Source: Candidatus Nomurabacteria bacterium (GTDB lineage Bacteria > Patescibacteriota > Minisyncoccia > Phycocordibacterales > UBA9973). From it: a stretch of 64,000 nt of DNA. The position numbers and the translations under genes were made by a program. Location of the stretch: the NCBI GenBank assembly GCA_023267435.1, contig JAHFNH010000004.1:1236-65235 (forward strand). The letters run 5' to 3'. The number at the start of each line of letters is the position of its first letter. Position 1 is the first letter of the stretch. Below are positions 10,143 to 60,950 of the stretch, piece by piece. Below the pieces are notes generated by a model. The model had not been told where the DNA came from and did not search any database. It was given only the letters and a program-made list of their open reading frames with translations.

Positions 10143-11387
10143 ATGCAAACTCAAGAGTTAAAAAAATATAAAATTCCGGATAAGCCTGGAGTATATTTTT
10201 TCCTTAAAAATAAGGATATTTTTTATATTGGCAAAGCGACATCTTTAAAAGATAGAATAAAAAGTTATTTTAGTAATGATTTGTTTAATATGCGCGGACC
10301 TTTATTGGTGGATATGATAACCAAAGCGACAAGTATTAAATGGGTTGAAACTGATTCTGTTTTGGAAGCTCTGATTCTTGAGGCAAATTTTATCAAGAAA
10401 CATCAACCGATTTACAATACCAAAGAAAAGAGTGATAAGAGTTTCAATTATGTTTGTATTACAAGGGACACCTTACCTAAGGTAATTGTTGTTCGAGGAA
10501 AAGATTTAAATAAAAAACAAAAGAATTTTGGAGCCTTCGCCCTCGGAGGCATAAGGCAGGGAACCCACGACTCTGAAAATTCTTTTGTTTTTTACGATAA
10601 AGTTTTCGGCCCATATCCCAATGGTTCACAATTAAAAGAAGCACTAAAAATAGTGCGTCGCATTTTTCCATTTTTAGATGAAAAGAGTAAAAATAATTAT
10701 GAATTTTATAGACAATTAAAACTTGTTCCTGATGAGGGTAACTATAAGAAAAACATAAAAAATATAAAGTTATTTTTTGAAGGTAAAAAGAATAAAATCT
10801 TAAAAAATTTGGAAAAAGAAATGAGGGATTGTGCAAAAAGACATGAGTTTGAGAAAGCAGGGGAAATAAAAAAACAAATTTTTGCATTAAAACATATTCA
10901 AGATATTTCTTTAATTAAAGAAGATAAGATTACTAAAGAATTTTCTAAAGAAAATTTTCGCATTGAAGCTTATGACATAGCGCATATGAGCGGGGAAAAT
11001 ATGGTTGGCGTGATGGTGGTCATTGAAGATGGGGAAGTGAATAAAAAAGAATACCGGAAGTTTAAGATAAAAAATTACTCAAGTTCCAATGACGTTGGTG
11101 CATTAAAAGAAGTATTAGAGCGCAGGTTTGCTCATACAGAATGGATATACCCTAAACTAATGGTGATAGACGGAGGTAAGGCTCAGTTGAATATCGTTAA
11201 AAAATTCCAAAATGAAGTTGGTTTAGCAATACCAGTTGTGTCTGTGGTGAAAGACGAAAGACATAGGCCTAAAGCTATTTTAGGTGTTTCATCTGGTATC
11301 TCAGAGTCTTTGATACTTTTAGCTAATTCTGAAGCTCATAGATTTGCAATTTCGTATCATAGGAAATTACGTGGGAAGATTATATAA
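10143..11387 (+). CDS. uvrC: excinuclease ABC subunit C (UvrC), truncated form lacking the C-terminal HhH domain
   Basis: GIY-YIG motif (GVYFFLKNKDIFYIGKATSLKDRIKSYF). UvrBC-interaction motif (FEKAGEIKKQIFALKHIQ). RNase H-like endonuclease domain (RIEAYDIAHMSGENMVGVMVV...EAHRFAISYHRKLRGK). The ORF ends right after this domain. Confidence 0.8.
   Translation: MQTQELKKYKIPDKPGVYFFLKNKDIFYIGKATSLKDRIKSYFSNDLFNMRGPLLVDMITKATSIKWVETDSVLEALILEANFIKKHQPIYNTKEKSDKSFNYVCITRDTLPKVIVVRGKDLNKKQKNFGAFALGGIRQGTHDSENSFVFYDKVFGPYPNGSQLKEALKIVRRIFPFLDEKSKNNYEFYRQLKLVPDEGNYKKNIKNIKLFFEGKKNKILKNLEKEMRDCAKRHEFEKAGEIKKQIFALKHIQDISLIKEDKITKEFSKENFRIEAYDIAHMSGENMVGVMVVIEDGEVNKKEYRKFKIKNYSSSNDVGALKEVLERRFAHTEWIYPKLMVIDGGKAQLNIVKKFQNEVGLAIPVVSVVKDERHRPKAILGVSSGISESLILLANSEAHRFAISYHRKLRGKII
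10518..10587. repeat. palindromic element (AT-rich inverted arms caaaagaatttt, GC-rich core) inserted in frame in uvrC
   Basis: Arms caaaagaattttggag / ctctgaaaattcttttg are inverted complements. The core gccctcggaggc is itself a perfect palindrome. Related copies at 40132-40219 and 60207-60268. Confidence 0.75.
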
Positions 11388-24135: not shown

Positions 24136-24254
24136 ATTAGGCTTAGGTTCTCTAAGATCGAAATCTTTGGAGGGTTACCCTAAATCCATGCTTTTAATAA
24201 ATATTTAAGTTGTACCAACATACTACTACAAAACCATAAAAATGCAACCTTTAC

Positions 24255-24322
24255 CTTGTCTATTTTGCATCCCACCCGCCTCACCCCTGACCCCTCTCCA
24301 AAATAAGATTTTAGAGAGGGGA
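24255..24322. repeat. GC-rich repeat A flanking the DUF559 cassette (…ttgcatcccacccgcctcacccc…cccctctcc-N13-gagagggg)
   Basis: About 80% similar to the left arm of 24975-25064. Contains an internal inverted repeat. Confidence 0.55.
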
Positions 24323-24394
24323 GAAATACAACCTCTTGACGTGCAGAGAGAGAGAGTATTATGAGGGTATTATTATTTTAAATAAAAAATATAT

Positions 24395-24610
24395 ATGGAA
24401 AATGCACCTGTTTCTTTAGAACAAAAAAGAAAAGATATTATCAATAATGCCAAGGGTCTGTTCGCGACTGCTCTCGATGAACTTGGGTCTACGTATGGGA
24501 CACCGATGAAAGGTATGGAAGATGACCAAAAGAATATGATAGAAATGCGTTTGAAAAATTTGGAATCTCTCATAAAAATGATAAACGAAAAACTAAAAGA
24601 GGTTTCTTGA
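24395..24610 (+). CDS. hypothetical small protein (71 aa)
   Basis: ORF with an upstream TTGACG...TATTAT promoter-like element and an (ag)5 run. No family recognised. Confidence 0.35.
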   Translation: MENAPVSLEQKRKDIINNAKGLFATALDELGSTYGTPMKGMEDDQKNMIEMRLKNLESLIKMINEKLKEVS

Positions 24611-24625
24611 TCTAATTAAAATTTT

Positions 24626-24979
24626 TTAAGAGGTATATTTTTTAATTTTCTCCAATGATTTATCTAAGTCTTTTTCTATTTCTGAATTCCAAAATCGGAT
24701 GACTTGGATATTCTTTGATTTTAAATATTCCGTGCGTGCTTTATCGTACTCTTTATTTTCTTTATGAATAGAGCCGTCTAATTCAATGGCGAGTTTTATT
24801 TTTGGTGCATAAAAATCAAGAATGAATTTCTCTATTGGGTGTTGCCTGCGAAATTTTACTCTGAGTTTATTGTTTCGTAGTTCTTTCCAAAGAATTTTTT
24901 CTGCTTCTGTTTCTTCTTTTCTGAGATAACGAGCTTTTGTTATTGATTGTAATTTTGGCATAAGATAATTATACCTCAC
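24626..24979 (-). CDS. DUF559 (Vsr/restriction-endonuclease-like) domain protein
   Basis: FRRQHPIEKFILDFYAPKIKLAIELDGSIHKENKEYDKARTEYLKSKNIQVIRFWNSEI matches the DUF559 endonuclease-domain pattern. Confidence 0.7.
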   Translation of the reverse strand: MRYNYLMPKLQSITKARYLRKEETEAEKILWKELRNNKLRVKFRRQHPIEKFILDFYAPKIKLAIELDGSIHKENKEYDKARTEYLKSKNIQVIRFWNSEIEKDLDKSLEKIKKYTS

Positions 24980-25064
24980 CCTGTCTGCTTCGCATCCACC
25001 CTCCCCATTTTTTTAAAAAAATGGGGAGGGGAAAGGGGTGGGGTGCATTTGTTTTCCTGTCTGG
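24975..25064. repeat. GC-rich palindromic repeat B (gcatccaccctcccca-T7A7-tggggagggg...ggggtggggtgc), flanked by cctgtctg direct repeats
   Basis: Near-perfect hairpin in an AT-rich context. Related to the in-frame palindrome in mnmA (60679-60724) and to repeat A. Confidence 0.65.
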
Positions 25065-36652: not shown

Positions 36653-36734
36653 TGCCGGGAGGGAGACTCGAACTCCCAAGGGTTGCCCCACTAGTTCCTA
36701 AGACTAGCGCGTATACCAATTCCGCCATCCCGGC
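36653..36734 (-). tRNA. tRNA-Leu (anticodon TAG)
   Basis: Cloverleaf read manually: acceptor GCCGGGA/TCCCGGC, anticodon stem CTAGT/ACTAG, loop CTTAGGA, long variable arm, T-arm GGGAG-TTCGAGT-CTCCC. Confidence 0.8.
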
Positions 36735-36737
36735 AAT

Positions 36738-36916
36738 GTATTAAACTCTAACATTAAAACAGTGCTTACGCACTCCGTCTCGCACAAGGATATTGTGGTC
36801 ACAAGTATTTTTCTACTGAAAAATCTCGCGAAGCCTATCGTATTAATAGGCACCTGTAGACGGCCCGCTCTCGGCACCGTCGTGCCTGCGGCTCGCACAA
36901 AGCATCCCATGCTTTG
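36738..36916 (-). ncRNA. 179-nt highly structured spacer between tRNA-Lys and tRNA-Leu (candidate small RNA)
   Basis: On the minus strand: GCACAAAGCAT-GGG-ATGCTTTGTGC, GGCAC-GACG-GTGCC, CCTAT-TAATACG-ATAGG hairpins. GC-rich relative to surroundings. Confidence 0.3.
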
Positions 36917-36989
36917 TGCGCCCACCAGGGATCGAACCTGGGACATTCTCCTTAAGAGGGAGCTACTCTACCAGCTGAGTTATGGGCGC
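36917..36989 (-). tRNA. tRNA-Lys (anticodon CTT)
   Basis: Acceptor GCGCCCA/TGGGCGC, D-stem ACTC/GAGT, anticodon loop CTCTTAA, T-arm CCAGG-TTCGATC-CCTGG. 73 nt. Confidence 0.8.
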
Positions 36990-37036
36990 ATGAAATATTC
37001 AGTTATCGGCGTATAAAAACAAAACTTAAACACCGG

Positions 37037-37118
37037 TGCCCGGAGTGGGGGTCGAACCCACATCCCTTGCGAGACACGATTTTAAGTCGTGCGCGTATAC
37101 CAATTCCGCCATCCGGGC
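37037..37118 (-). tRNA. tRNA-Leu (anticodon TAA)
   Basis: Acceptor GCCCGGA/TCCGGGC, anticodon stem CACGA/TCGTG, loop CTTAAAA, long variable arm. Confidence 0.8.
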
Positions 37119-37166
37119 AATTTTTAAATTATAATTCAAAACTATTCTTTTCTCAAATTACAATTG

Positions 37167-37238
37167 AGGCCTGGGGCGGAATTGAACCGCCGCATAGAGA
37201 TTTTGCAGATCTCTGCCTTACCACTTGGCTACCAGGCC
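37167..37238 (-). tRNA. tRNA-Cys (anticodon GCA)
   Basis: Acceptor GGCCTGG/CCAGGCC, anticodon stem GAGAT/ATCTC, loop CTGCAAA, T-arm GGCGG-TTCAATT-CCGCC. Confidence 0.8.
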
Positions 37239-44567: not shown

Positions 44568-44650
44568 GCGTCGGTGGTGGAGTGGTCTATCACAACAGAC
44601 TGTAAATCTGTCGGCTTCGGCCTTCGAAGGTTCGAATCCTTCCCGACGCA
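44568..44650 (+). tRNA. tRNA-Tyr (anticodon GTA)
   Basis: Acceptor GCGTCGG/CCGACGC, anticodon stem ACAGA/TCTGT, loop CTGTAAA, long variable arm. T-arm GAAGG-TTCGAAT-CCTTC is near-identical to E. coli tRNA-Tyr. Confidence 0.85.
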
Positions 44651-53866: not shown

Positions 53867-53893
53867 TTATTATTTTAAAAGAAATATACAAAA

Positions 53894-55708
53894 ATGGAAA
53901 TCAGAAATATCGCAATCATAGCTCACGTGGACCACGGCAAGACGACCTTGACCGACGCTTTAATGAAGCAAAATGGAGGACTTCAAGATGAAGGAATATC
54001 AATGGACTCAAACGCCCTAGAAAAAGAGCGCGGTATTACTATTTATTCAAAAAATACTTCGATCAATTACAAGGGAACAAAGATAAATATCGTTGATACG
54101 CCAGGGCACGCTGATTTCGGTTCTGAAGTTGAACGCGTTTTAAGAGCGATTGATTCTGTGCTTCTTTTAGTTGACGCTGTTGAAGGACCTATGCCTCAAA
54201 CTAGATTCGTTTTGAAGAAATCTTTAGAGTTAGGTTTGAAGCCAATCGTTGTTATCAATAAAATTGATAAGCCAGCTGCTGATCCGCATAGAGTTCATGA
54301 TGAAGTCTTGGAATTATTTTTCGAGCTTGGTGCTAATGAAGATCAGGCAAATTTCGAAACAGTCTATGCTATCGGGCGCCAAGGTCTAGCGAAGAAAAAA
54401 CTTACAGATGAATCTTCTGACCTTTCTCCTTTGTTAGATGTAATTTTAGAAAAAGTTCCGCCGGCTTCCGTCAACGAAGAAGGAAAAATGTCTGCGCAGG
54501 TTTTCAATCTTGGTTATGACAACTTCTTAGGCAGAATGGCTGTCGCTAGAATTTACTCTGGAAAAATGACACAAGGAAGCCAGCTTTTTATAAAAGGTGA
54601 GAATGGTACAAGAACAGGAAAGATAACGAAACTTTTCACTTTTGAAGGAATAAACAGAAAAGATGTTTCAGAAGCGACGTCAGGTGATATCGTGCTTCTT
54701 GCCGGTATTCCAGATATTTATATCGGTGAGACAATTTGCGGAGATGAGAGCGTTGAACCATTACCGCATATCGCGATCGATGAACCAACTATTTCGTTGA
54801 ATTTTTTAGTGAACGATTCTCCGTTTGCCGGTAAAGAAGGAAAATTTGTCACCTCCAGACAAATCAAAGAAAGATTAGAAAAAGAACTTGAAATAAACGT
54901 CGGACTTAAAGTTGATTTTTCTCCCGACCAAGGAGAGGCGAAGTTCGGTCCAAGCTTCTTTAAGATTTATGGAAGAGGCGAACTTCACATTGCAATACTT
55001 TTGGAAAATATGCGCCGAGAAGGATTTGAAATGCAGGTCTCTCAACCAGAAGTAATTATTAAAGAAGAAAACGGACAAAAGACGGAACCTTATGAAGAAT
55101 TAGTTATTGATGTTCCGATGGAATCTTCTGGAGGAGTTATTGAAAAAATCGGCAAGCGCCGAGGTATCATGAAAGACATGACAGAGAAGGAAGGCATAGC
55201 TAGAATTGTTTTTGATATACCGACACGCGGACTTCTGGGTTATCGCGGAGAATTTACTGTCGATACGAAAGGTGAGGGCATAATGTCTTCACGAGTTATC
55301 GGTTTTAAGGAGTATGCGGGAGAAATAAAGAAACGCGAATACGGTTCCATGACTTCCATGGTTTCCGGCAAGGCGGTGGCTTTTGCACTTGCAAATTTAC
55401 AGGAACGTGGTATTATGTATATTGAACACGGAACGGAGGTTTACGAAGGTATGGTTATCGGAAATGTTCTTAAAGGAGAAGATATGGCTGTGAACCCCAC
55501 AAAAGGCAAGCAGCTTACCAATATGCGAGCTTCGGGAACTGATGAAGCCTTATTTTTAAAGCCTGCTTTCATTTTAACCATTGAAAGAGGTCTTGAGGTT
55601 ATGAATGCCGATGAGTACCTAGAAATCACTCCAAAGTCAGTCAGACTCCGAAAAAAGTACTTAACAGAGCTGGATCGCATCAAAGCCGGACGAGGAGGCA
55701 AGAATTAA
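53894..55708 (+). CDS. typA: translational GTPase TypA/BipA
   Basis: [39 protein letters not shown]-like domains. 604 aa. Confidence 0.9.
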
Positions 55709-59801: not shown

Positions 59802-60950
59802 TTGATAAAGCAAAAGAAAACTATATTTGTCGGTATGTCGGGTGGGGTGGATTCTTCTGTTTCCGCTGCTATTTTAAAAGACCAAGGATATGATGTCGTT
59901 GGGGTTTTTATTCGTACCTGGCATCCTGATTTTTTGGTTTGTAATGAAGAAGACGAACGCCGCGACGCTATGCGCGTCGCGGCGCATTTAGATATTCCAT
60001 TTCTGACTTTCGATCTTGCAGATGTATATAAAAAAGAAGTGGCTGATTATATGATTTCTGAATATAAGGCAGGACGCACTCCAAACCCAGATGTGATGTG
60101 TAATAAAGAAGTGAAGTTTGGCGCTTTTCTAAAAAAGGCACTAGAGATGGGTGCGGATTATGTGGCGACAGGGCATTATGCGCAGGTTTCATTAAATAAA
60201 AATTTAAAAGATTTTGGAGCCTTCGCCCTTGGAGAATTAAAGAGAGGGGGCTCTAAAAATCTTTCAAATTTTTCTTTAATTAAAGGCAAAGACCCTTCCA
60301 AAGATCAATGTTATTTTTTGTGGACATTAAAACAAGAACAACTAAAACATATTTTATTTCCAGTGGGACATTTAAATAAAACAGCTGTGAGAAAACTGGC
60401 GAAGAAATATAAATTACCAGTAGCAGAAAAGAAAGATAGTCAGGGTATATGTTTCTTGGGTGATATTGATTTGAAAGATTTTTTGAAACACTATATTAAA
60501 GAAAAAAGAGGGAAAATTTTGCTAGAAAATGGTGAAGAAATTGGATTCCATGACGGTGCGGTTTTCCATACTCTCGGTGAACGTCATGGTTTTACAATTA
60601 CCAAAAAAGGTCCGAATGATAGTGCGTATTATATTGTCGGAAAAGACGTAAAGAAAAATATTTTAGTTGTTTCGCAGAACCCCTCCCAACCCTCCCCTTA
60701 TCAAGGGGAGGGCGAGGGTGGGGTAATTAAAAAATTAGATAATGTGAATTTTATTTCAGGTATTCCAAATGAAAATAAAAATTATACAGCGCAGATAAGA
60801 TATCACGGAGAATTTTTAGATTGTAAAATTAAAATTACTGGAAAAACAACCGTTGAAGTAATTTTTGAAAAACCAGTATTAGTAGCGGGAGGTCAATCGG
60901 TAGTCTTTTATGATAAAGATATTTGTCTTGGCGGGGGAGTAATTATTTAG
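59802..60950 (+). CDS. mnmA: tRNA-specific 2-thiouridylase MnmA, carrying two in-frame palindromic-element insertions
   Basis: PP-loop VGMSGGVDSSV. CNKEVKFGAFL…ATGHYA, DPSKDQCYFL motifs. Extra segments FGAFALGELKRGGSKNLSNF and PSQPSPYQGEGEGG. Confidence 0.85.
   Translation: MIKQKKTIFVGMSGGVDSSVSAAILKDQGYDVVGVFIRTWHPDFLVCNEEDERRDAMRVAAHLDIPFLTFDLADVYKKEVADYMISEYKAGRTPNPDVMCNKEVKFGAFLKKALEMGADYVATGHYAQVSLNKNLKDFGAFALGELKRGGSKNLSNFSLIKGKDPSKDQCYFLWTLKQEQLKHILFPVGHLNKTAVRKLAKKYKLPVAEKKDSQGICFLGDIDLKDFLKHYIKEKRGKILLENGEEIGFHDGAVFHTLGERHGFTITKKGPNDSAYYIVGKDVKKNILVVSQNPSQPSPYQGEGEGGVIKKLDNVNFISGIPNENKNYTAQIRYHGEFLDCKIKITGKTTVEVIFEKPVLVAGGQSVVFYDKDICLGGGVII
60207..60268. repeat. palindromic element (arms aaaagattttggagcc / ggctctaaaaatcttt) in frame inside mnmA
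   Basis: Shares ttttggagccttcgccct with the uvrC copy. Inverted AT-rich arms around a GC-rich core. Confidence 0.75.
60679..60724. repeat. GC-rich palindrome (cccaaccctcccc-ttatcaa-ggggagggcgagggtgggg) in frame inside mnmA
   Basis: Same arm motif (accctcccc / ggggaggg..gggtgggg) as repeat B at 24975-25064. Sharp GC spike within an AT-rich gene. Confidence 0.7.

What the first reader, a model, noticed from the sequence alone, without database searches (positions are those of the whole stretch)
60679..60724. Second, GC-rich palindrome family also in frame inside mnmA
A 46-nt GC spike (cccaaccctcccc-ttatcaa-ggggagggcgagggtgggg) forms a near-perfect hairpin. It is translated in frame as PSQPSPYQGEGEGG in the C-terminal domain of MnmA. 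The arm motif (accctcccc / ggggaggg..gggtgggg) matches the intergenic palindrome at 24975-25064. MnmA thus carries two unrelated palindromic inserts.
Basis: seen in the sequence. Interest (0 to 1): 0.7.

Follow-up and report, generated by a model that had tools for sequence, protein, structure and literature searches.

The report
Translated mobile GC-rich hairpin inside mnmA
The GC-rich hairpin inside the tRNA-modification gene mnmA of this ultra-small (CPR/Nomurabacteria) bacterium is a translated, cargo-less copy of a mobile palindromic DNA element whose full-length form carries a DUF559 endonuclease gene, so it both extends "protein-coding palindromes" beyond Rickettsia and gives a lead on what DUF559 proteins do.

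Summary
Window 60679-60724 is a 46-nt, 67% GC hairpin (18 bp, -34.8 kcal/mol, z = -4.6) in a 35% GC genome. It is read in frame as PSQPSPYQGEGEGG. It lies in the linker between the PRC-barrel and C-terminal barrel domains of MnmA, not inside the C-terminal domain.

Its arm words occur in only one other region of the 64-kb window, at 24279-24321 and 24974-25045. These two sites are the hairpin ends bracketing a DUF559 (Vsr-like PD-(D/E)XK) endonuclease gene.

The same layout, [outer C-arm, inner C-arm, loop, inner G-arm] – DUF559 – [inner C-arm, loop, inner G-arm, outer G-arm], surrounds DUF559 genes in 28 of 30 loci examined. These include other CPR genomes, diverse metagenomes, cyanobacteria, Deinococcus, Azospirillum, Neisseria and E. 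coli ycjD.

In 80 related Nomurabacteria loci, solo or cargo-less copies recur patchily at three sites:
- the MnmA linker
- one BipA/TypA surface loop, where 35 of 40 orthologues are empty
- one intergenic spacer

The element is therefore mobile, tolerated in frame at permissive loops, and works like Rickettsia palindromic elements. That DUF559 moves it is inferred, not shown. I found no prior description.

The parts
60679..60724 (+). Solo, cargo-less GC-rich palindromic element translated in frame as (N)PSQPSPYQGEGEGG(V). Outer C-arm 60679-60688, AA bulge, inner C-arm 60690-60697, loop TTATCAA 60698-60704, inner G-arm 60705-60712, CGA, outer G-arm 60716-60724.
   Evidence: A near-identical copy lies in an intergenic spacer of another genome (L054:6994-7036).
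59802..60950 (+). mnmA (tRNA 2-thiouridine synthase), the host gene. The TTG start at 59802 restores the conserved N-terminus; the database protein P0001 starts at the ATG at 59835.
24974..25045 (.). Related element immediately upstream of the DUF559 gene. Outer C-arm CCTCACCC 24974-24981, 17-nt bulge tgtctgcttcgcatcca, inner C-arm CCCTCCCC 24999-25006, A/T loop 25007-25022, inner G-arm 25023-25031, AAA, outer G-arm GGGGTGGGGTG 25035-25045.
   Evidence: (I6). The same 17-nt-bulged subtype is seen at L079:1177-1243.
24626..24979 (-). DUF559 / YcjD-like Vsr-fold PD-(D/E)XK endonuclease gene (probable ATG start at 24961), the cargo of the cassette.
   Evidence: Pfam PF04480 E=2.5e-34. PDB 3HRL 'endonuclease-like protein' E=5.5e-18. 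Motif DF..E.DG..H..D..R..R..N conserved across 24 homologues.
24279..24321 (.). Other end of the cassette. Outer C-arm CCTCACCCC 24279-24287, TGA, inner C-arm CCCCTCTCC 24291-24299, loop 24300-24313, short inner G-arm GAGAGGGG 24314-24321. No outer G-arm.
   Evidence: 93-100% identical words flank the DUF559 gene of L050 and occur in L074.
24395..24610 (+). Orphan 71-aa ORF lying between the DUF559 gene and the 24279 end. Either a passenger or unrelated.
   Evidence: only a sub-threshold PHAT hit; no relative in any fetched locus.
60187..60284 (+). The other, AT-rich palindromic insert in mnmA, encoding NLKDFGAFALGELKRGGSKNLSNF. It belongs to an unrelated family and is listed because the finding refers to it.
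   Evidence: (I2).

Best explanation
The 46-nt hairpin is a solo, cargo-less copy of a family of GC-rich, two-tier palindromic mobile elements (outer C-arm, short bulge, inner C-arm, loop, inner G-arm, bulge, outer G-arm).

In its full-length form the family consists of two such hairpin ends in inverted orientation around a DUF559 (YcjD-like, Vsr-fold PD-(D/E)XK) endonuclease gene. One cassette of this kind sits at 24279-25045 in the same window.

The solo copy landed in, and largely overwrote, the flexible linker between domains 2 and 3 of MnmA. A C-arm/G-arm palindrome reads C-rich then G-rich on either strand, so in an open frame it encodes Pro/Ser/Leu followed by Gly/Glu/Arg, which makes a disordered loop. 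An in-frame copy at a surface linker is therefore tolerated and is translated as part of MnmA. Selection removes copies elsewhere in genes, which is why the same few permissive sites are occupied again and again in related genomes.

Shown:
- The family relationship between the solo copy and the cassette ends.
- The cassette architecture and its cross-phylum association with DUF559.
- Presence/absence polymorphism at orthologous sites.
- In-frame occupancy of two housekeeping proteins.
- Maintenance of arm complementarity across diverged subfamilies.

Inferred:
- The peptide is actually made.
- The DUF559 nuclease is what moves or copies the hairpins. Plausible routes are nicking or cutting the extruded hairpin or cruciform followed by repair-templated copying, or homing. 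This would be analogous to the RAYT transposase with REP/REPIN elements.
- Solo copies are non-autonomous derivatives of the cassette.
For: Hairpin and frame.

Same family next to DUF559 in the window.

The same architecture in a second Nomurabacteria genome. In L050 the outer arms CCTCACCCCTGCCCCCTCTCC and GGAGAGGGGAAGGGGTGAGG bracket a DUF559 gene that is 73% identical. That genome's own mnmA carries a solo copy with matching arms, GGAGAGGGG-CGA-AGGGGTGAGG. The window's solo copy likewise matches the window's cassette arm.

DUF559 association:
- 28 of 30 DUF559 loci have such a hairpin within 250 nt. These are 24 metagenome loci at 43-71% aa identity and 33-52% GC, plus Picosynechococcus, Pseudanabaena, N. 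gonorrhoeae, Azospirillum, Deinococcus and E. coli ycjD.
- Density is 2.60 per kb near the gene against 0.17 per kb further away (Poisson P about 3e-32), and 0.023 per kb in the 1.28 Mb of mnmA loci.
- The L050 cassette is an insertion into an alaS-to-ftsA-like spacer that is short and hairpin-free in about 55 other loci.

Mobility and polymorphism of solo copies:
- BipA/TypA loop: 35 of 40 orthologues read AFKKLGDDSKDLSPLLD. L002, L024 and L052 have a 48-nt hairpin (LPLPNLPLxKGEEKGGG) in place of 18 nt. L037 has a double element and L013 another palindrome.
- Intergenic spacer after the 342-aa gene: occupied in L002, L037, L050 (left end, 23 nt, right end, no cargo), L052, L054 and L079; empty in about 50 others.
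- MnmA linker: 14 of 120 orthologues carry P..P..GEG-type segments. Their closest relatives usually have none or a different family. For the window protein, the nearest relative P0002 (88% identical outside the linkers) has none.

Palindromy is maintained across subfamilies. Of 429 C-arm 7-mers with a G/A-rich 7-mer downstream, 226 have the exact complement, against 80 +/- 7 when partners are shuffled.

Tolerated position:
- The segment is extra relative to solved MnmA structures.
- It falls in a stretch with pLDDT below 50 (aa 296-309) and no predicted secondary structure there.

Nuclease competence: the DF..E.DG..H..D..R motif is conserved in the window protein, and YcjD-like proteins are predicted Vsr-related PD-(D/E)XK nucleases (PMC1189080).
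Against: - No target-site duplication or defined empty-site junction could be found, so the insertion chemistry is unknown.
- In both MnmA and BipA the element replaces host codons rather than simply adding to them. A simple cut-and-paste model does not predict this.
- No experiment or expression data show that the peptide is made or that DUF559 acts on the hairpins.
- DUF559 genes could merely prefer to home into pre-existing hairpins that something else mobilises.
- The DUF559 loci are not all independent. L091-L097 and L100 are close relatives, and L084/L085 and L098/L099 are duplicate pairs, of which only one member was counted.
- I chose the hairpin-detection criteria after seeing the data.
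- Only two Nomurabacteria genomes show both a cassette and a solo copy, so the within-genome arm match is anecdotal.
- The structure model is of modest quality (mean pLDDT 69.5).
- Only partial genomes were available, so copy numbers per genome are unknown.
Confidence: 0.72

Rival explanations
1. The hairpins are an independent REP-like repeat family, moved by some other enzyme or by recombination. DUF559 genes are selfish homing endonuclease genes that insert into these hairpins, so DUF559 is a parasite of the repeat rather than its engine. The mnmA copy is still a translated solo repeat.
For: - Solo copies far outnumber cassettes in the sampled DNA: about 40 hairpins against 2 DUF559 genes in 1.37 Mb.
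- Vsr-like folds are used by bona fide homing endonucleases, such as the I-Bth0305I family (PMC3239194 and PMC2677866, listed).
- Arrays of end-hairpins without genes occur beside some cassettes (L087, L100, L106).
Against: - The L050 cassette sits in a spacer that has no hairpin in about 55 relatives, so a pre-existing hairpin target is not required there.
- Cassettes carry an extra inner hairpin on each side, which simple insertion into a hairpin loop would not create.
- No other candidate mobilising enzyme was seen, although the window's genes were not all screened.
Confidence: 0.2
2. The Pro/Gly-rich segment is a selected protein feature, a flexible inter-domain linker of MnmA, and the DNA palindromy is incidental.
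For: The segment is in a linker, is predicted disordered, and Pro/Gly-rich linkers are common in proteins (general knowledge).
Against: - The same DNA element occurs in non-coding spacers and next to DUF559.
- The arms remain complementary across subfamilies.
- The distribution among 120 orthologues is patchy and the nearest relatives lack the segment.
- The same element type also appears in BipA.
Confidence: 0.03
3. The hairpin now serves a nucleic-acid-level function inside mnmA. Examples would be a ribosome pause site that helps co-translational folding of domain 3, an mRNA stability or processing site, or a DNA cruciform used in recombination. In that case it is an exapted element rather than tolerated junk.
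For: - The RNA hairpin is very stable.
- It sits exactly at a domain boundary.
- Intergenic solo copies sit just after stop codons and in front of T-rich tracts, where they would act as terminators (L052, L054, L079).
Against: - Most orthologues do without it, and many carry unrelated sequences at the same place.
- It matches no Rfam family.
- The mnmA copy has no T-tract and is not terminator-like.
Confidence: 0.1
4. The hairpin is an assembly or binning artefact (a chimeric join at a repeat), or an untranslated intervening sequence that is bypassed or removed, like the GC-rich 'byp' inserts of some yeast mitochondria.
For: - The genome is a metagenome-assembled one, and repeats can cause mis-joins.
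- Read coverage could not be checked.
- The source contig could not be retrieved.
Against: - The frame is preserved, there are no stops, and the downstream domain is intact.
- The identical protein is recorded from NCBI, ENA and Logan sources.
- Equivalent elements occupy the same linker in many independently assembled genomes.
- No matching take-off and landing codons flank the element.
Confidence: 0.03

Closest known systems
Rickettsia palindromic elements (RPEs; Ogata et al. 2000 and 2002, as summarised in PMC10969869)
   Same: - Palindromic repeats that insert in frame into unrelated housekeeping genes of a small, AT-rich genome.
- They are translated as extra surface peptides compatible with the fold.
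- They are also found in non-coding DNA.
- The transposition mechanism is unknown.
   Different: - RPEs are about 100-150 bp and not GC spikes; this element is 46 nt with C-run and G-run arms.
- No sequence relationship is expected and none was tested.
- The host is a CPR bacterium, not Rickettsia.
- This family has a gene-carrying form (DUF559), which RPEs lack.
REP/REPIN elements with their RAYT transposase (REPtrons)
   Same: - Short imperfect palindromes dispersed in many copies.
- A single-copy nuclease gene flanked by two such palindromes in inverted orientation.
- Arm sequence differs between lineages along with the associated gene.
   Different: - The flanked gene is a Vsr-fold PD-(D/E)XK protein (DUF559), not an IS200/IS605-type HUH tyrosine transposase.
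- REPs are extragenic by definition, whereas here copies are translated.
- The two-tier hairpin with C-only and G-only arms is unlike REP.
Yeast mitochondrial GC clusters (for example PMC4478555)
   Same: - Mobile GC-rich palindromic clusters of about 30-50 nt in a very AT-rich genome.
- Presence/absence polymorphism.
- Some lie in frame inside a protein gene (var1, from my own knowledge).
   Different: - They are mitochondrial and eukaryotic, with no associated endonuclease gene flanked by the clusters.
- Their sequences are unrelated.
MITEs, the non-autonomous derivatives of insertion sequences (PMC10969869)
   Same: - Cargo-less forms exist, with both ends retained and a short spacer (L050:7001-7057).
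- These stand beside gene-carrying forms and are scattered through genomes.
- They can make in-frame fusions.
   Different: - No target-site duplication was seen.
- The partner is not a DDE or other recognised transposase.
- The commonest form is a single hairpin rather than two terminal inverted repeats around a core.
Vsr-like (EDxHD / I-Bth0305I) homing endonucleases (PMC3239194, PMC2677866)
   Same: A small free-standing nuclease gene of the Vsr/PD-(D/E)XK fold behaving as selfish DNA.
   Different: - Those enzymes reside in introns or inteins, or between split inteins, and target unique conserved genes.
- DUF559 here sits between its own hairpin ends, and the 'target' is a dispersed repeat.
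- The relationship of DUF559 to that family was not tested.

Membership tests
Rickettsia palindromic elements (RPE) | Palindromic repeat inserted in frame in protein-coding genes and also present in non-coding DNA | tested here: met
   coding copies; non-coding copies.
Rickettsia palindromic elements (RPE) | Length of about 100-150 bp and membership of one of the RPE-1 to RPE-10 consensus families of Rickettsia | tested here: not met
   The element is 46 nt and the host is Cand. Nomurabacteria. Sequence comparison with RPE consensus sequences was not possible because none were at hand.
REP/REPIN-RAYT (REPtron) | A single-copy gene flanked by two inverted copies of the dispersed palindrome | tested here: met
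REP/REPIN-RAYT (REPtron) | The flanked gene is a RAYT (IS200/IS605-like HUH Y1 transposase) | tested here: not met
   The gene is DUF559 (PF04480, E=2.5e-34) with a Vsr-like fold.
REP/REPIN-RAYT (REPtron) | Repeats are extragenic | tested here: not met
   Copies in mnmA and bipA are in frame.
MITE | Terminal inverted repeats with flanking target-site duplications | tested here: inconclusive
   Inverted ends are present. No consistent duplication appears at filled versus empty sites, but the empty-site junctions are not sharply defined.
MITE | A parent insertion sequence encoding a recognised transposase and sharing the ends | tested here: not met
   The only gene found between shared ends is DUF559. 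The window was not exhaustively screened for transposases.
Intrinsic (rho-independent) terminator | GC-rich hairpin followed directly by a T/U tract | tested here: not met
   The mnmA copy is followed by TAATTAAAAAA and is not called by the scan. Some intergenic solo copies do precede T-rich tracts.
Known RNA families (Rfam 15) | Score at or above a family's gathering threshold | tested here: not met
   Only tRNAs pass in the window. The best hit on the hairpin scores 26.5 bits against a threshold of 71.
Homing endonuclease gene | The encoded nuclease cleaves the cargo-less allele and the gene is copied in by repair | not testable with these tools
   This needs biochemistry or genetics. Only a filled-versus-empty polymorphism at the alaS spacer was seen.
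DUF559 / YcjD-like PD-(D/E)XK nucleases (for the cassette gene) | Pfam PF04480 match above threshold and conserved D...E.D..H core | tested here: met

The most novel reading that the evidence does not exclude
DUF559/YcjD-like proteins are a very large family of unknown function that includes E. coli YcjD. Under this reading they are the dedicated nucleases of a previously unrecognised, cross-phylum class of two-tier GC-rich palindromic mobile elements. This would be a REPtron-like system built on a Vsr-fold PD-(D/E)XK enzyme instead of a HUH transposase. In CPR bacteria its cargo-less hairpins colonise coding sequences and repeatedly remodel the same surface loops of essential proteins such as MnmA and BipA.
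Probability: 0.4. Interest if true: 0.85.

Novelty: new variant of a known kind. Interest (0 to 1): 0.68.

Why it matters
Protein-coding palindromes have been treated as a Rickettsia peculiarity. This finding shows the same phenomenon in the Candidate Phyla Radiation. It also shows the same loops of essential translation-related proteins being hit repeatedly, by at least six palindrome families. That offers a natural experiment on which protein sites tolerate insertions and on how selfish DNA creates new peptide segments in minimal genomes.

It has a practical side as well. Such inserts inflate apparent protein divergence and length variation in CPR genomes. The GC spikes can also disturb assembly and gene calling.

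The larger point is the tight, cross-phylum bracketing of DUF559 genes by the same hairpin architecture. DUF559 is a widespread domain of unknown function, and this gives a concrete, testable hypothesis for it: a nuclease tied to a palindromic mobile element. The substrates to test are defined, namely each gene's own flanking hairpins, including those of E. coli ycjD and the crystallised Neisseria protein 3HRL.

Tried and rejected
- **Retrieving the source contig.** Exact-protein look-up failed twice, so read coverage and whole-genome copy number could not be addressed.
- **Strict hairpin scan.** A scan for 8-bp perfect stems found too few cases. I relaxed it to 5-7 bp with C/T-only arms.
- **Covariance model.** The MAFFT alignment of nine elements (A1) mis-aligned the G-arms because of G-run slippage and variable loops. 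I did not build a model and used an alignment-free arm-complement test instead.
- **Target-site duplications.** I looked at filled and empty BipA and intergenic sites and found none. The CTGTCTG words on both sides of the 24975-25064 element looked like a duplication. They are better explained as part of a 17-nt bulge motif shared with L079.
- **Rfam.** Both gathering-threshold and permissive searches gave nothing.
- **Terminator scan.** The mnmA hairpin is not terminator-like.
- **Viral contigs.** There are no DUF559 relatives of this protein.
- **The 71-aa ORF inside the cassette.** It has no relative in any fetched locus.
- **E. coli annotation.** Nothing but ycjD is annotated under the match to the ycjD 3' end and its downstream repeat region.
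- **Literature.** Searches for DUF559 or ycjD with repeats or palindromes, and for CPR/Patescibacteria with palindromic or in-frame elements, found no description.
- **Translational bypass and an intein- or intron-like reading.** Rejected because the element is open, in frame and short, and lacks matching flanking codons.
Full report
**1. The observation**

Window 60679-60724 reads A CCCCTCCC AA CCCTCCCC TTATCAA GGGGAGGG CGA GGGTGGGG T.
- As RNA it folds into 18 pairs at -34.8 kcal/mol, against -21.0 +/- 3.0 for 200 dinucleotide-preserving shuffles (z = -4.56). No shuffle folds as well.
- Its GC content is 67%, in a window of 35% GC.
- The motif CCCTCCCC-N(3-33)-GGGGAGGG occurs twice in 64 kb, at 24999-25030 and 60690-60712, with none in 100 shuffles.
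- The family's arm words occur at only three places in the window: 24279-24321, 24974-25045 and 60679-60724. The single other hit is a GGGTGGGG in the mnmA P-loop codons.

The hairpin is inside ORF 59802..60950 and is read as PSQPSPYQGEGEGG. The ORF is MnmA. It has the HUH... no: it has the HUP domain at aa 7-220, the PRC-barrel at 225-292 and the C-terminal barrel at 312-381. The peptide therefore lies in the inter-domain linker, and the downstream domain is still in frame.

**2. Organism and host protein**

The closest proteins and loci are Candidatus Nomurabacteria / Paceibacteria (CPR) metagenome-assembled genomes. The identical protein, annotated from an internal ATG, is recorded from NCBI, ENA and Logan sources on a 75.7-kb contig.

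Aligned to a solved MnmA (9hlv), the window protein has two extra segments. One is at aa ~136-155 and corresponds to the AT-rich palindrome at 60187-60284. The other is a small one at the GC hairpin. An AlphaFold2 model has mean pLDDT 69.5, so it is only modest. It gives pLDDT below 50 and no secondary structure at 135-155 and 296-309, which is consistent with both inserts being disordered loops.

**3. The MnmA linker is a recurrent landing pad**

In an alignment of 120 orthologues (66-100% identity) the linker after the conserved ILxVSQN varies from about 12 to about 50 residues. It contains several recurring peptide families:
- PLPNPSPL..NGEGRRGE and SPQPSPYKGEGE, the family studied here
- SPLLNKEGVGGGNSKNHHPALKGTPPQKGGE
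- SPLTRGRLGGGELKSTSPQSSPYQGEGEV, a composite form
- KDFGAFALGDIGQGTHDAKNLS, which is the AT-rich family that sits at a different site in the window's own MnmA
- STDIFLLKNSSCSRQSRSQASF
- QLLSHGSHSNLNVV..AYAEESTAL
- LRHSDTSPLIRGRRGGG

Fourteen of the 120 carry P..P..GEG-type segments. Their nearest relatives, judged outside the linker, mostly have no such segment or a different family. For the window protein, P0002 (88% identical) has none, P0018 (86%) has a different GC element and P0004 (83%) has none. Occupancy is therefore patchy, as expected from repeated gain and turnover rather than inheritance. The net length gain relative to these neighbours is only 3-5 codons, so the element mostly overwrites the older linker.

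**4. The same elements elsewhere in 80 related loci (1.37 Mb)**

A scan for C-arm / loop / G-arm hairpins found about 40 elements.

(a) An almost identical element lies in a non-coding spacer of another genome: L054:6994-7036, AACCTCTCCCAACCCTCCCCTGTCAGGGGAGGGCGAAGGGTGGGGTT.

(b) BipA/TypA.
- 35 of 40 orthologues, including the window's at 53891-55693, have the loop AFKKLGDDSKDLSPLLD.
- L002, L024 and L052 have a 48-nt hairpin encoding LPLPNLPLxKGEEKGGG in place of 18 nt.
- L037 has a double element and L013 an unrelated palindrome.
- This is a clear derived, in-frame occupation of a second housekeeping protein.

(c) The spacer after a conserved 342-aa gene ending KYFKKNKNGLYTLA*.
- It is empty in about 50 loci.
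- It holds a solo element in L052 and L054.
- It holds a 17-nt-bulged solo element in L079, the same subtype as window 24974-25045.
- It holds a cargo-less 'left end, 23 nt, right end' form in L050.
- It holds other variants in L002 and L037.
- No target-site duplication is visible.

Outside mnmA, most copies are intergenic, and the only clear in-frame ones are in that single BipA loop. This fits purifying selection leaving only permissive sites, although targeted insertion is not excluded.

**5. Palindromy is maintained**

Subfamilies differ in arm sequence: CCCTCCCC/GGGGAGGG, CCCCTCTCC/GGAGAGGGG, CCTCCCCC/GGGGGAGG and CCCCCC/GGGGGG. The two arms nevertheless change together. Of 429 C-arm 7-mers followed within 45 nt by any G/A-rich 7-mer, 226 are followed by their exact complement. 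When partners are shuffled among elements the figure is 80 +/- 7, with a maximum of 103 in 1000 shuffles.

Because a C-arm/G-arm palindrome reads C-rich then G-rich on both strands, either orientation encodes Pro/Ser/Leu followed by Gly/Glu/Arg.

**6. The 'intergenic palindrome' is one end of a DUF559 cassette**

At 24626-24979 on the minus strand lies a DUF559 gene. It matches Pfam PF04480 at E=2.5e-34 and PDB 3HRL 'endonuclease-like protein' at E=5.5e-18.
- The gene start abuts the element at 24974-25045.
- About 300 nt beyond the gene's stop, past an orphan 71-aa ORF, lies 24279-24321: CCTCACCCC TGA CCCCTCTCC, loop, GAGAGGGG.

In L050 a 73%-identical DUF559 gene is bracketed by CCTCACCCCTGCCCCCTCTCC-loop-GAGGGG on one side and CCCCTCTCT-loop-AGAGGGGAAGGGGTGAGG on the other. 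L050's own mnmA carries a solo copy whose arms match that cassette, GGAGAGGGG-CGA-AGGGGTGAGG. In the same way the window's solo copy, GGGGAGGG-CGA-GGGTGGGG, matches the window's cassette arm, GGGGAGGGG-AAA-GGGGTGGGG.

The L050 cassette is an insertion into an alaS-to-ftsA-like junction that is short and hairpin-free in about 55 other loci. The window's cassette sits at a different locus, between an S1-domain protein gene and an MBL-fold gene. The cassette is therefore itself mobile.

**7. The association is general and crosses phyla**

A metagenome scan with the window's DUF559 protein returned 24 loci at 43-71% aa identity and 33-52% GC. In gene orientation nearly all show two features:
- [outer C-arm, x, inner C-arm, loop, inner G-arm] 50-200 nt upstream
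- [inner C-arm, loop, inner G-arm, x, outer G-arm] 16-600 nt downstream

Some show tandem arrays of an end hairpin, for example L087 (four copies upstream) and L100 (four copies downstream).

DUF559 homologues in named genomes show the same pattern:
- Azospirillum lipoferum: CCCCTCACCCCAACCCCTCTCCC gcaa GGGGAGAGGGGC
- E. coli ycjD: CCCTCACCCCAACCCTCTCCC tgaaa GGGCGAGGGGGC
- Deinococcus
- N. gonorrhoeae
- Picosynechococcus and Pseudanabaena, with C5-6/G5-6 arms

Counting one member of each duplicate pair, 28 of 30 loci have a qualifying hairpin within 250 nt. Density is 2.60 per kb near the gene, 0.17 per kb further away in the same loci, and 0.023 per kb in the mnmA loci. The Poisson P is about 3e-32, with the caveat that some loci are related.

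The nuclease-type motif DF..E.DG..H..D..R..R..N is conserved in all 24 aligned homologues, including the window's. YcjD-like proteins were predicted long ago to be Vsr-related PD-(D/E)XK nucleases (PMC1189080).

**8. How it most likely works**

Shown:
- A family of two-tier GC-rich palindromes exists as solo hairpins, cargo-less end pairs and DUF559-carrying cassettes.
- All forms show presence/absence polymorphism at orthologous sites.
- Solo copies are read in frame in MnmA and BipA.

Inferred:
- The MnmA copy is translated into a disordered linker loop that is selectively tolerated.
- Solo copies are non-autonomous relatives of the cassette.
- The DUF559 nuclease provides the DNA break or nick that lets the hairpins be copied. 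This is analogous to RAYT with REP/REPIN, or alternatively DUF559 homes into the hairpins.

Host codons are replaced rather than simply interrupted (18 nt replaced by 48 nt in BipA), and there is no target-site duplication. Both points fit break-repair or template-switch copying better than cut-and-paste, but this is speculation.

**9. Alternatives**
- A purely protein-level linker is contradicted by the non-coding copies.
- A known RNA family or a terminator is excluded for the mnmA copy. Intergenic copies may well act as terminators.
- An artefact is unlikely, given the preserved frame and equivalent inserts in many independent assemblies. Coverage could not be checked.
- Bypass or removal is unnecessary, because the insert is open and in frame.

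**10. Comparison with what is known**

Functionally this is closest to Rickettsia palindromic elements, which are in-frame palindromes in housekeeping genes (PMC10969869). Compositionally it is closest to yeast mitochondrial GC clusters (PMC4478555). Architecturally it is closest to REPtrons. It is a member of none of these:
- The size and host differ from RPEs.
- The flanked gene is not a RAYT.
- The copies are not extragenic.
- No MITE-type duplication or transposase was found.

Searches of the held literature found no description of palindromes associated with DUF559 or ycjD, nor of in-frame palindromic elements in CPR. That library is incomplete, so prior description elsewhere cannot be ruled out.

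**11. Verdict**

The finding is a new variant of a known kind (protein-coding palindromic selfish DNA), in a new lineage. It comes with a previously unreported, well-supported association with DUF559 endonuclease genes, whose mechanistic meaning remains to be tested.

Noticed in passing
window 60187-60284 and 10498-10607: The AT-rich palindromic family (29-32-nt arms) is also translated in frame twice in this window. One copy is in mnmA (NLKDFGAFALGELKRGGSKNLSNF). The other is in a UvrC-like GIY-YIG gene, 10143..11387 (KKQKNFGAFALGGIRQGTHDSENSFVFY). In other genomes the same peptide family occupies the other MnmA site, the linker.
   Followed up: partly
window 59958-59984: A GC-rich perfect hairpin, CGCCGCGAC-GCTATGCGC-GTCGCGGCG, lies inside mnmA and encodes the conserved ERRDAMRVAAH. 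The DNA hairpin itself is conserved in many orthologues (L022, L052, L053, L055, L058, L070, L074). This is striking codon conservation in 30-40% GC genomes.
   Followed up: no
L054:10859-10927, L037:10862-10933, L031:9648-9720 (mnmA linkers): These are composite 'right end + left end' forms: inner C, loop, inner G, outer G, about 10 nt, outer C, inner C, loop, inner G. The two outer arms can pair to make a third, central stem. This is the arrangement expected at a junction between tandem or circularised elements.
   Followed up: partly
L087:2597-2777, L100:3557-3773, L106 (Pseudanabaena): Tandem arrays of 3-4 copies of one end-hairpin, with periods of 56-68 nt, lie next to DUF559 genes.
   Followed up: no
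L110 (E. coli ycjD), upstream of the gene: Upstream of ycjD is a perfect 17-bp palindrome, CACCTCATTCTGACAAG...CTTGTCAGAATGAGGTG, which begins and ends with the CCTCA/TGAGG words of the outer arms. Downstream are two C-arm/G-arm hairpins. Under the match, which covers the 3' end of ycjD and about 185 nt downstream, only ycjD is annotated; the upstream side was not queried.
   Followed up: partly
window 24250-24278, window 24982-24998 and L079:1177-1205: A shared ~17-nt motif, GTCTnnnnnGCATCC(A), sits immediately 5' of a C-arm in three elements. In two of them it forms a bulge between the outer and inner C-arms. Its role is unknown.
   Followed up: partly
window 24395-24610: An orphan 71-aa ORF lies inside the DUF559 cassette. 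It has no relative in any fetched locus and only a sub-threshold PHAT hit.
   Followed up: partly
window 59802 vs 59835: The database protein P0001 starts at the ATG at 59835. The TTG at 59802 restores the conserved N-terminal strand (consensus MKKKTVFVGLSGG), so the annotated start is probably 11 codons too short.
   Followed up: partly
L013:4680-4830 (BipA loop) and several spacers listed: Other, non-C/G palindromes are also present. Examples are the one encoding SPALPASGLRHGSNFSTPSG in the L013 BipA loop and the GCTGGGCTT...AAGCCCAGC hairpins in L026 and L052. They occupy the same BipA loop, MnmA sites and spacers, so several unrelated hairpin families share the same landing pads.
   Followed up: no
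window 36653-37238: A cluster of four tRNA genes lies on the minus strand, with one more tRNA at 44568-44650. This is ordinary.
   Followed up: no
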